A stretch of 64,000 nt of DNA, taken from assembly GCF_000372725.1 (NCBI RefSeq), contig NW_005201381.1:307953-371952 (forward strand), read 5' to 3'. The stretch's first letter is position 1; every line of letters starts with the position of its first letter. The notes under the pieces are model-generated. The model was not told the DNA's origin. It worked only from the letters and a program-made list of their open reading frames with translations, and did no database searches. Origin of the DNA: Emiliania huxleyi CCMP1516. Taxonomy: Eukaryota. This document shows, piece after piece, positions 11,217 to 12,884 of the stretch. The position numbers and the translations under genes were made by a program.

Positions 11217-12884
11217 CTAAGCGTAGTGGAGAGAGGCGATTCCAGTGCGCGCTACTACTCGTCGGGCCAGAGGGGCCTCTGCGGAGCGGTGGGGGCCTCT
11301 GCCCAACATGGCCGCAAGCCCCGTGTTGCTCTCGCCGACTGCGGAGGGCCGGCGCTCACGCGCGGTGCGGAAGAAGCAGTCGGCGAGGAGCCTATCGACT
11401 GGGAAGCAGATGAGGGCGCTGCAAGCTCAAAGGCGCGGCTGAGTTGTCAAGCGACCGGTTCATGTCAGGCGGGTAGGTCGCAGCTGCTGCAGAGTTGAAG
11501 TTGCCGTCGCTGTCGCGCCCAAACGCAACCTACGGCCGAGCGCAGAGTCAGAGAACAAACGCCGAGACTGCAGTGGCGGCGTCACTCACCCTGCTGTGCT
11601 GGCGGAAGCACCTGCAGACCTTGTCTCCGAAGCTGCTCCGCACGTAGCGCTGGACGCCGTCGGTGGCAGCCAGAGCGGTCGGCTATGGGAAGCACCCGAC
11701 AGGTCAAGTGCGCTCTCACTGGCAGTGGTCTACTGGCAGTGTGACACACTGCCAACCTTCTTGTACTCGGAGGACAGCGCGCACTGGTCGAACTCGACGA
11801 GGTGGGAGTTGCACGCGCTCCGAAGGAAGTCAGCGACGGCGGGGATGCACCAGAGGGGGCAGTGGCGCCACTGCTCTTTCGCAAACGGGCGGTGAAGCCG
11901 CTCCTTCGAGGCGTAGTCGGGCGGGTTCTCGATCATAGCCTCCCCGCCGCCGGAGTAGACGAGTGCGCAGCACTCGAGGGATAGGCGCGTCAGGGCGTTG
12001 CCAATGTTGAGCTCCTGCTGCTGCCACGGCTCCAAGCCTGGCAGCCCAAGTACATTCTCGCGGTCGCGCAGCGGCTGGCAGCCCGGCCCGCAGTTGTCGT
12101 GAAAGCGCAGCACCGAGTAAGACGAGCAGACGACGCCAGCGAAGCACATGTCGAACTGGCGGTCTCGGCAGAGCTCTCTCAGGCCGTCAGCTGTCCGCGG
12201 CTCGAGCATGTCCTCCTGGGACCCGTCGCCAGAGCCGCGCAAGATGTCGAGCTCGGCAATCTCGACGCACAACCCTTCTCCCTTCCCGTCGGCGGCCAGT
12301 CTCGCTCGCTCGACCAAGAAGGCCGCCAGCCCGTCGTCAGGGCGGTCGTCTCCCGCGAAGAGGACCAGCACGCGGTAAATCTCGAAGAAGCCGCAACGCA
12401 GGCCCGTCTTCTTGTCGATTCCGTAGCGGGGAAACTCGTGCCACTTGTACTGAGTCTTCCGCTCGCGAGGCTCGAGCCTATTCGAGAAGCGAGACTGAGG
12501 GCGCCTCTCGATGGAGCAGGATGAGGCGCGAGGTGCAGCGCACGAGCGAGTCGCACCCTTGGGAGGGTGGCAGAAGCTGCACTTGTCGCCCAGGCTGCAC
12601 TCGACCTCGGCCGGTGGTGGTGGCGGAGGCGGCTCGGCTGGCGGCTGGCCCTCGCCGCTCCCTCGCGCCACGGCAGGCGGCGGTCCCGCGGCAGGCGGCG
12701 GCCCCGCGGCCAGCGGCGGAGGCGGAGGCGACGACGGCGGCGGTGGCGACGACGGCGGCGGCGGCGGCTGCTGCGTCTCGGCAGTGGCGCGGTCGTCCAT
12801 CGCCTGGTCAGCGGCGACGGCGTTCAAGGGGTCCCAGATGGCATCGAATGCGGCGTCGTCCAGCTCGTCGAAGAATTCGGCCAT
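11217..12884 (-). CDS. C5-cytosine DNA methyltransferase-like protein (retrotransposon-type family), spliced
   Basis: ATG at 12884. Motifs RVLVLFAG (I), ELDI (II), FDMCFAGVVCSSYS (IV), MIENP (VI) and EFDQC. GT-AG introns 11756-11683, 11589-11530 and 11455-11392 restore YKK|PT, GRDSDGNFNSAAAATYPPDMNR|LLADCF and a stop at 11219-11217. Confidence 0.8.

What the first reader, a model, noticed from the sequence alone, without database searches (positions are those of the whole stretch)
11217..12884. Spliced TE-type C5 DNA methyltransferase: possible domestication
Seen in sequence: C5-MTase-like motifs (LFAG, D-I, GVVCSSYS, IENP, DQC). The ORF track truncates the gene, but three short GT-AG introns (74, 60 and 64 nt) rebuild KKPT and AAxYPxxMNxLLA in frame. 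Established knowledge: cytosine methyltransferases occur as cargo of retrotransposons, including DIRS elements in dinoflagellates. From memory, the ENP/DQC/KxT/YP pattern matches that divergent group rather than DNMT1, DNMT3 or DNMT5. Inference: spliceosomal introns and no adjacent RT or recombinase suggest either a host-domesticated copy or carriage by a DNA element. The catalytic PC is replaced by VC with Cys kept, so activity is uncertain. A Pro-rich N-terminus and a C-x5-C-x2-CH cluster precede the domain.
Basis: partly seen in the sequence, partly recalled or inferred. Interest (0 to 1): 0.85.

Follow-up and report, generated by a model that had tools for sequence, protein, structure and literature searches.

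The report
Spliced retrotransposon-type DNA methyltransferase gene
This algal gene is transcribed and spliced at four introns, and belongs to a large protein family, missed by standard domain libraries, that many retrotransposons carry and that is predicted to fold like a cytosine DNA methyltransferase; here it stands alone and is likely a host-kept copy, with its enzyme activity untested.

Summary
The gene is real and spliced. RNA contigs show all three proposed introns (74, 60, 64 nt). Pfam sees nothing, but a full-length relative's model matches C5-cytosine methyltransferases (DNMT3A Z 10.2). A profile finds 4132 clusters; 15 of 37 mostly long ones scanned are Copia or Gypsy polyproteins. 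Others look DIRS-like by motif, and one is a LINE-type RT fusion. Cys, Glu and K-x-T are nearly invariant; canonical RxR is absent. The window protein groups with relatives lacking RT, apart from RT-fused ones (SH-aLRT 93, unrooted). Its closest is an Emiliania huxleyi model (54%) that shares the VC change and the tail. No RT, recombinase, transposase or bracketing repeat was found nearby. Best reading: a host-kept member of a retrotransposon-associated DNMT-fold family. It is not the published SymbioDIRS-Dnmt3. The direction of transfer and the activity are unproven.

The parts
11757..12884 (-). Exon 1: acidic and Pro-rich N-terminus, Cys/His cluster, methyltransferase motifs I-VI and the start of VIII
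   Evidence: RNA contigs listed cover 11757-12215 and 12659-12824; 12216-12635 not bridged
11683..11756 (-). Intron 1, GT-AG, 74 nt
   Evidence: Joint in runs X13, X14
11590..11682 (-). Exon 2: completes K-P-T; C-x-C..H small-domain motif
11530..11589 (-). Intron 2, GT-AG, 60 nt
   Evidence: Joint in X11, X12, X13, X14
11456..11529 (-). Exon 3: AAATYPPDMN (motif X position)
11392..11455 (-). Intron 3, GT-AG, 64 nt
   Evidence: Joint in X11, X12, X13
11277..11391 (-). Exon 4: end of the last core helix and linker
11206..11276 (-).
   Evidence: Joint in one X11 contig; one X13 contig reads through it unspliced
10900..11205 (-). Exon 5: helical tail shared with relatives lacking RT; basic C-terminus (likely nuclear signal, inferred)
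   Evidence: tail profile E 0.002; matches the tail of P0075
12351..12362 (-). Motif I position, LFAG (predicted SAM-binding loop)
   Evidence: Gly in 114 of 115 filled rows
12126..12137 (-). Motif IV, GVVC (predicted nucleophile Cys253; Pro replaced by Val)
   Evidence: Cys in 141 of 142 filled rows; Pro 137, Val 4
11922..11933 (-). Motif VI position, IENP (predicted catalytic Glu)
   Evidence: Glu in 150 of 151 filled rows
12567..12599 (-). C-x5-C-x2-C-H cluster; resembles the second half of a CCCH zinc finger (resemblance recalled, no Pfam hit)

Best explanation
This is a transcribed, four-intron gene that likely belongs to the host genome and encodes a stand-alone member of a retrotransposon-associated protein family predicted to have the C5-cytosine methyltransferase fold; it likely acts in the nucleus as a SAM-dependent de novo cytosine methyltransferase. 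Shown: splicing and transcription; family membership; Copia and Gypsy polyproteins carry the same domain; conserved Gly, Asp, Cys, Glu, K-x-T and YP positions; no element machinery found in the window. Predicted: the fold, from a relative's model. Inferred from the known C5-methyltransferase mechanism: SAM binds at the F-A-G loop and acidic motif II, Cys253 attacks C6 of a flipped cytosine, the ENP Glu protonates N3, and K-x-T stands in for the usual RxR. Inferred: an element-borne domain left its polyprotein long ago, gained a helical tail, basic end and introns, and duplicated. The host is inferred to be an Emiliania/Gephyrocapsa-like haptophyte. Odds by step: fold and family about 0.9; not now inside an element about 0.75; element-to-host direction about 0.55; active on DNA cytosine about 0.5.
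For: Splice joints in RNA contigs of 3 studies, none in the DNA run. Model of full-length relative P0004 (pLDDT 72, pTM 0.75): top Foldseek hit DNMT1, E 6e-4; all 50 rows of the VIA second look are C5 methyltransferases, best DNMT3A Z 10.2, rmsd 3.8, 195 aligned. 4132 clusters at E<=0.001; of 37 mostly long ones scanned, 14 have Copia and 1 Gypsy domains. Motif columns are near invariant in 156 rows. 34-row tree: 18 proteins lacking RT, the window's among them, lie apart from 16 RT-fused ones (SH-aLRT 93); window + P0075 + P0077 at 98. P0075 is an E. huxleyi CCMP1516 model, 54% identical over 347 aa with the same VC and tail. One DNA run gives a single 2343-nt contig and no second copy at 85% or more. 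The locus with both flanks recurs at 99.2% over 3.7 kb. No RT, integrase, recombinase or transposase family among 160 ORFs scanned. Core alleles: 4 synonymous against 2 amino-acid changes; both coding deletions keep the frame.
Against: The window's own exon-1 model (214 aa, lacking the C-terminal part) gives only a generic Rossmann match: best Z 8.4 to a dehydrogenase, MET1 6.5, DNMT3B 6.4, and no Foldseek hit at E<=0.001. No PF00145, NCBIfam or PDB sequence hit. RxR and PC are both altered. Trees are unrooted and quick; a 17-row tree put the window protein on the side of three RT-fused rows (SH-aLRT 89). 'Lacking RT' refers to the predicted protein only: the relatives' surroundings could not be seen, and some are unbroken ORFs in clusters with contigs up to 54 kb, which may be elements or viruses. 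One allele (P0001, 3 contigs) is frameshifted near 12513, P0018 has two more core changes, and tail alleles are mostly amino-acid changes. Both flanks are nests of small repeats, and copy number was not calibrated.
Confidence: 0.5

Rival explanations
1. Reverse direction: the stand-alone genes are an old, unrecognised host (or virus-derived) methyltransferase family of marine algae, and retrotransposons captured the domain from it, as reported for Dnmt3.
For: Stand-alone and RT-fused rows are two sides of one unrooted branch. Host-to-element capture is the published pattern (PMC5890265). Small phage C5 methylases with PC, IENP and KPT are the nearest viral folds (E 2e-4) and could be the common source.
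Against: The RT-fused side is deeply diverse and spans Copia, Gypsy, DIRS-like and LINE carriers. The stand-alone rows form one compact group in the 96-row tree (15 rows, support 87).
Confidence: 0.2
2. The gene is cargo of a non-autonomous DNA element or an endogenised virus, which can keep introns, and serves that element and not the host.
For: Repeat-rich flanks. In run X10 the 3' flank joins the end of a terminal-repeat element at 10662. Relatives are unbroken ORFs in clusters of 10 and 46 members with long contigs. A second E. huxleyi model sits on a 17-kb contig, apparently fused to unrelated sequence.
Against: No bracketing terminal repeats: the one candidate pair is two short insertions, one with its own 8-nt duplication. 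No near-identical paralogue in X10. Six scans of viral contigs found no relative of the domain.
Confidence: 0.15
3. The protein is host-kept but does not methylate DNA cytosine: it is a DNA-binding pseudoenzyme, or acts on RNA or another base.
For: RxR is replaced by K-x-T family-wide, FxGxG is shortened and PC is VC here. The orphan SymbioLINE domain gave no DNA methylation in yeast, a result the authors call inconclusive (PMC5890265).
Against: Cys (141 of 142) and Glu (150 of 151) are kept across the family, as expected of chemistry and not of a scaffold. VC recurs in 4 rows, one of them outside the window's group.
Confidence: 0.1
4. A decaying but still transcribed relic.
For: A frameshifted allele, a 6-residue deletion after motif I in L001, a relaxed tail, low contig depth in RNA.
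Against: Frame open over 571 codons across four introns; GC3 0.83-0.86 in five of six segments; motifs kept between paralogues only 54% identical.
Confidence: 0.05

Closest known systems
SymbioDIRS-Dnmt3 and KnitGypsy-Dnmt3 (de Mendoza 2018, PMC5890265; parts 1-4 of 7 read)
   Same: Cytosine-methyltransferase domain inside retrotransposon Pol polyproteins.
   Different: Those are Dnmt3-class and come from a survey with PF00145. This family is PF00145-negative with ENP and K-x-T, its confirmed carriers are mostly Copia, and the window gene has introns and no RT.
SymbioLINE-Dnmt 'orphan' lineage (same paper)
   Same: Divergent element-linked DNMT; a Cladocopium RT protein (P0016) is a distant member of this family (E 7e-8).
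   Different: Published copies sit mostly in ORF1 upstream of the RT ORF; P0016 has the domain behind the RT in one predicted protein. The paper's alignment is in a supplement too large to read, so identity was not tested.
EpiLTR DNMTs of Cymbomonas and Euglena (bioRxiv 10.64898/2026.05.21.726589; part 1 and passages read)
   Same: DNMT appended to LTR-retrotransposon pol.
   Different: Reported as sister to DNMT4 and paired with DAM and chromodomains; no such partners among the 37 relatives scanned. Sequences not compared.
DNMT3A/B, DNMT1/MET1, DNMT5, M.HhaI
   Same: Fold and motif order (Z 9-10 for a relative's model).
   Different: 8-17% identity; no chromatin-reader or SNF2 domains; RxR missing; short Cys/His small domain.
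Small phage putative C5 methylases (Lactococcus P087 gp15; Streptococcus and Enterococcus phage relatives)
   Same: PC, IENP, KPT in the same order; fold match E 2e-4.
   Different: Profile-profile comparison is not significant (probability 9%); a lead for the origin only.
Emiliania huxleyi CCMP1516 EMIHUDRAFT_121358 (XP_005758646.1), named only as hypothetical or WWE-domain protein
   Same: 54% identical over 347 aa, same VC and same tail.
   Different: A distinct paralogue; its model joins the domain to WWE and membrane-like sequence and may be chimeric.

Membership tests
C5-cytosine DNA methyltransferase superfamily | Class I Rossmann fold of the C5-methyltransferase type | tested here: met
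   On full-length relative P0004 (34-40% identical to the window domain):
C5-cytosine DNA methyltransferase superfamily | Same fold for the window protein itself | tested here: inconclusive
   Only the exon-1 part was folded; generic Rossmann matches, MET1 Z 6.5
C5-cytosine DNA methyltransferase superfamily | Catalytic Cys (motif IV) and Glu (motif VI) | tested here: met
   Cys253 and the ENP Glu are present and near invariant
C5-cytosine DNA methyltransferase superfamily | Pro-Cys dipeptide | tested here: not met
   Val-Cys here; Pro in 137 of 142 rows
C5-cytosine DNA methyltransferase superfamily | Motif VIII RxR (canonical motif recalled) | tested here: not met
   K-x-T instead: Lys 142 of 144, Thr 138 of 143
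C5-cytosine DNA methyltransferase superfamily | Pfam PF00145 match | tested here: not met
   0 of 2 window pieces, 0 of 12, 0 of 4 and 0 of 37 relatives; ESM Atlas nearest named cluster is PF00145 at 0.84-0.88, a lead only
C5-cytosine DNA methyltransferase superfamily | SAM-dependent 5mC formation | not testable with these tools
   Needs an assay
SymbioDIRS-Dnmt3 | Domain in a Pol ORF with RT, tyrosine recombinase ORF and split terminal repeats | tested here: not met
SymbioDIRS-Dnmt3 | Clusters with eukaryotic Dnmt3 | not tested
   No Dnmt3 sequences in the trees; DNMT3A is tied with DNMT5 and M.HhaI in the fold comparison
SymbioLINE-Dnmt | Sequence kinship with the published ORF1 domains | not tested
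   Published sequences not available here
Domesticated transposon gene | Spliced, expressed transcript | tested here: met
Domesticated transposon gene | No element machinery or termini around the gene | tested here: met
   Within the 64-kb window; 160 of 358 ORFs of 100 aa or more were scanned, so intron-split genes may be missed
Domesticated transposon gene | Low copy number at a fixed locus | tested here: inconclusive
   One contig in one DNA run; same flanks in L001; no whole genome held
Domesticated transposon gene | Purifying selection and synteny across species | tested here: inconclusive
   Six core allele changes only; paralogue keeps the motifs
Domesticated transposon gene | Nested within element-borne sequences in a rooted tree | tested here: inconclusive
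   Unrooted trees
PCNA-binding (PIP-box) proteins | Q-x-x-hydrophobic-x-x-aromatic motif in the tail (consensus recalled) | tested here: not met
   No match in the window protein. A pattern fitted after seeing them matches 6 of 6 full-length relatives; a close variant matches 3 of 12 further ones

The most novel reading that the evidence does not exclude
Marine algae hold a large class of cytosine methyltransferases that Pfam misses (ENP and K-x-T type, perhaps of phage origin). It rides in Copia, Gypsy, DIRS-like and LINE retroelements, and it has given rise to a domesticated, intron-bearing host lineage that is active in coccolithophores; many members carry a PCNA-binding-like tail. It would be a retrotransposon methyltransferase turned into a host epigenetic enzyme, absent from DNMT inventories built on PF00145.
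Probability: 0.3. Interest if true: 0.85.

Novelty: new variant of a known kind. Interest (0 to 1): 0.62.

Why it matters
At least one survey of eukaryotic DNA methyltransferases and their retrotransposon carriers started from PF00145 (PMC5890265), which misses this family of some 4000 clusters. Element capture of host DNMTs is published; I did not find the reverse, a host-kept spliced copy of an element-type DNMT, in the papers returned. G. huxleyi has CG (about 18%), CHG (about 9%) and rare CHH methylation (bioRxiv 10.1101/2024.05.26.595999, passages), and DNMT3 was reported absent from the haptophytes studied (PMC9998398, passages). A further de novo enzyme would bear on how those marks are set. 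Whether a K-x-T active site can methylate cytosine is directly testable.

Tried and rejected
Sequence libraries gave nothing for the domain: Pfam, PDB sequences, PHROGs, NCBIfam (one of 13 members hit dcm at E 0.11), phage tblastn. Relatives were not found in viral contigs (31, 56, 57, 89, 90; the two loci are 21-residue matches outside the domain), in prokaryotic genomes (66) or by family pattern in metagenome contigs (36). Rejected: the 5771-5835 / 14506-14566 inverted match as termini of a carrier. Rejected: the duplicated 290-nt piece downstream as DIRS split repeats, since no matching repeat lies in the upstream flank. Rejected: an adenine methyltransferase reading of 'NPP', since Glu and Cys are the invariant residues and the fold hits are C5-type. 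A strong-looking GT donor at 12555 with the acceptor at 12478 would shift the frame; many in-frame GT/GC/GA alternatives exist and none is shown. CpG observed/expected is about 1 across the locus and says nothing. The unbiased wide fold search of the full-length model did not run. RNA cover is missing over parts of exon 1, which is no evidence either way. 5 of the 20 listed runs were laid. Three look-ups in earlier findings returned nothing.

Full report
Observation. The minus strand has an ORF from ATG 12884 with LFAG, ELDI, GVVCSSYS, IENP and FDQC. Contigs of four RNA runs from three studies skip exactly these stretches: 74 nt in 2 of 4 runs, 60 nt in 4 of 4, 64 nt in 3 of 4; one contig carries all three. 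The one DNA run laid shows no joint. A fourth joint of 71 nt (11276-11206, GC-AG) appears in one contig of 1 of 3 RNA runs, and one X13 contig reads through it unspliced. GC donors (about 60%) and intron retention are common in E. huxleyi (PMC4028052, passages). The corrected gene has five exons, 571 aa, and ends at 10900. A profile of 7 relatives scores the unspliced, three-intron and four-intron forms at 141, 209 and 219 bits.

Host. No genome is held. About 65% GC, the GC-AG intron, marine runs and an E. huxleyi model as closest named relative point to an Emiliania/Gephyrocapsa-like haptophyte; this is inference.

What the domain is. Pfam, NCBIfam, PHROGs and PDB sequences do not see it. 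An AlphaFold model of full-length relative P0004 (pLDDT 72, pTM 0.75) has DNMT1 as top Foldseek hit (E 6e-4). A second look at Foldseek's 1000 best chains lists 50 rows, all C5 methyltransferases, best DNMT3A Z 10.2, rmsd 3.8 over 195 residues. Against viral models, the best named hits are phage cytosine methylases. The window's own exon-1 piece folds with pLDDT 78 but matches only generic Rossmann proteins (best Z 8.4; MET1 6.5), which is inconclusive for a truncated domain. Across 156 aligned rows, Gly of motif I (114 of 115 filled), Asp (123 of 124), Cys (141 of 142), Glu (150 of 151), Lys (142 of 144), Thr (138 of 143) and YP (114 and 120 of 122) are nearly fixed. The canonical RxR (recalled) is absent. 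Val replaces Pro in 4 rows: the window protein, P0075, P0080 and P0171.

The family and its carriers. The profile finds 4132 clusters at E<=0.001 and 1037 at 1e-10. I scanned 37 of the 150 listed, chosen mostly for length: 14 have Copia domains, 1 Gypsy, 2 DUF4326, 1 WWE, 19 none, and none PF00145. P0013, P0014 and six more show RT-like and RNase H-like motifs by pattern and look DIRS-like by eye. P0016 from Cladocopium has an RVT_1 domain with the methyltransferase behind it. The Atlas structure search likewise gave clusters with Copia domains.

Where the window gene sits. A 17-row tree left it between the groups, on the side of three RT-fused rows (SH-aLRT 89). With 96 rows it falls in a group of 15 short proteins (support 87; 60 of 156 rows, P0075 among them, were dropped by a motif and length filter). 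With 34 chosen rows, 18 proteins lacking RT lie apart from 16 RT-fused ones (SH-aLRT 93), and the window protein joins P0075 and P0077 (98). These trees are quick and unrooted, the alignment profile was seeded mostly on stand-alone sequences, and the relatives' genomic surroundings were not visible. P0075 is E. huxleyi CCMP1516 EMIHUDRAFT_121358, 54% identical over 347 aa with the same VC and a near-identical tail. So VC likely predates a duplication, and the fifth exon has independent support. The relatives lacking RT share a helical tail. Many end in a PIP-box-like motif and basic residues (pattern fitted after the fact); the window protein has the basic end but not the motif.

Surroundings. 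160 of the 358 ORFs of 100 aa or more were scanned and gave ordinary genes (CAP-Gly, aminotransferase, aldo-keto reductase, thioredoxin, RPA, ankyrin/U-box, sideroflexin, ARPC3) and no RT, integrase, recombinase or transposase. tblastn with the RT-fused relatives hits only the methyltransferase exons. Both flanks are nests of short repeated elements. The only repeat pair bracketing the gene is two short insertions, one with its own target duplication. Run X10 gives one 2343-nt contig and no second copy at 85% or more. L001 matches 14069-10327 at 99.2% and L002 matches 11875-10938 at 97.4%. Core alleles show 4 synonymous and 2 amino-acid changes, tail alleles mostly amino-acid changes, and the 18- and 9-nt deletions keep the frame. 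One allele is frameshifted near 12513, where GC3 drops to 0.70: a hidden intron or a null allele, unresolved.

Mechanism. Most likely a nuclear, SAM-dependent cytosine methyltransferase kept by the host: SAM at the F-A-G loop and motif II, Cys253 as nucleophile, the ENP Glu as acid, K-x-T in place of RxR. All of these roles are inferred from the known C5 mechanism; none was tested. Four spliceosomal introns argue against present mobility through a spliced RNA (established knowledge). Confidence in the whole reading is 0.5. Rivals: capture in the reverse direction 0.2, cargo of a DNA element or virus 0.15, non-catalytic or RNA-directed 0.1, relic 0.05.

Comparison. De Mendoza 2018 (PMC5890265; parts 1-4 of 7 and passages read; main supplement too large to read) describes Dnmt3-class domains in DIRS and Gypsy and an orphan lineage in LINE ORF1, from a survey with PF00145; only SymbioDIRS-Dnmt3 was active in yeast. 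PMC12344493 (passages) notes DNMT3 in Copia and DIRS, and 'orphan' clades. The 2026 EpiLTR preprint (part 1 and passages) adds DNMT4-related domains. PMC4738411 (passages) concerns adenine methyltransferases in DIRS. None of these passages describes an ENP/K-x-T, Pfam-negative family or a spliced stand-alone copy, but identity with a published orphan clade was not tested, and most subscription papers are not searchable. Verdict: it works like a C5 methyltransferase by fold and key residues, fails three textbook membership marks (PC, RxR, PF00145), and is a new variant of a known kind. Interest 0.62.

Noticed in passing
window 7705-10660: Nest of small repeated elements: terminal-repeat elements 7761-8607 and 8784-9823, a 360-nt element 9891-10249 with a copy at 33612-33980, and a 290-nt piece present twice (interrupted at 7705-9891, whole at 10246-10534). 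In run X10 the flank at 10662 joins the end of the 8784-9823 family: a strain difference.
   Followed up: partly
window 13953-15463: Nested terminal-repeat elements (arms 13953-14001/15415-15463 and 14286-14453/15138-15270), with related copies near 26978-27136 and 50081-50608.
   Followed up: no
window 5771-5835 and 14506-14566: Two copies of a 65-nt insertion with a tandem-repeat tail; the second has an 8-nt flanking duplication; likely truncated SINE or LINE ends.
   Followed up: yes
window 12478-12555: Linker with low GC3 and a frameshifted allele (P0001); possible fifth intron.
   Followed up: partly
P0002, P0004, P0007-P0010, P0070, P0072: Relatives lacking RT end in a PIP-box-like motif, mostly followed by basic residues, hinting at PCNA-coupled methylation.
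   Followed up: partly
P0013, P0096, P0148: DIRS-like polyproteins with a phage-type DUF4326 domain between the methyltransferase and the RT.
   Followed up: no
P0085, P0094, P0098, P0103, P0122, P0193, P0201: Copia polyproteins with the methyltransferase-fold domain inserted between integrase and RT.
   Followed up: partly
window 15400-24000: Long multi-exon gene with a dockerin-like hit and Pro-rich stretches, crossing the assembly gap at 16345-16842.
   Followed up: no
window 27546-27845 / 31377-31676 and 6772-7616 / 63143-63996: Near-identical dispersed repeats (100% over at least 300 nt; 92% over 855 nt).
   Followed up: no
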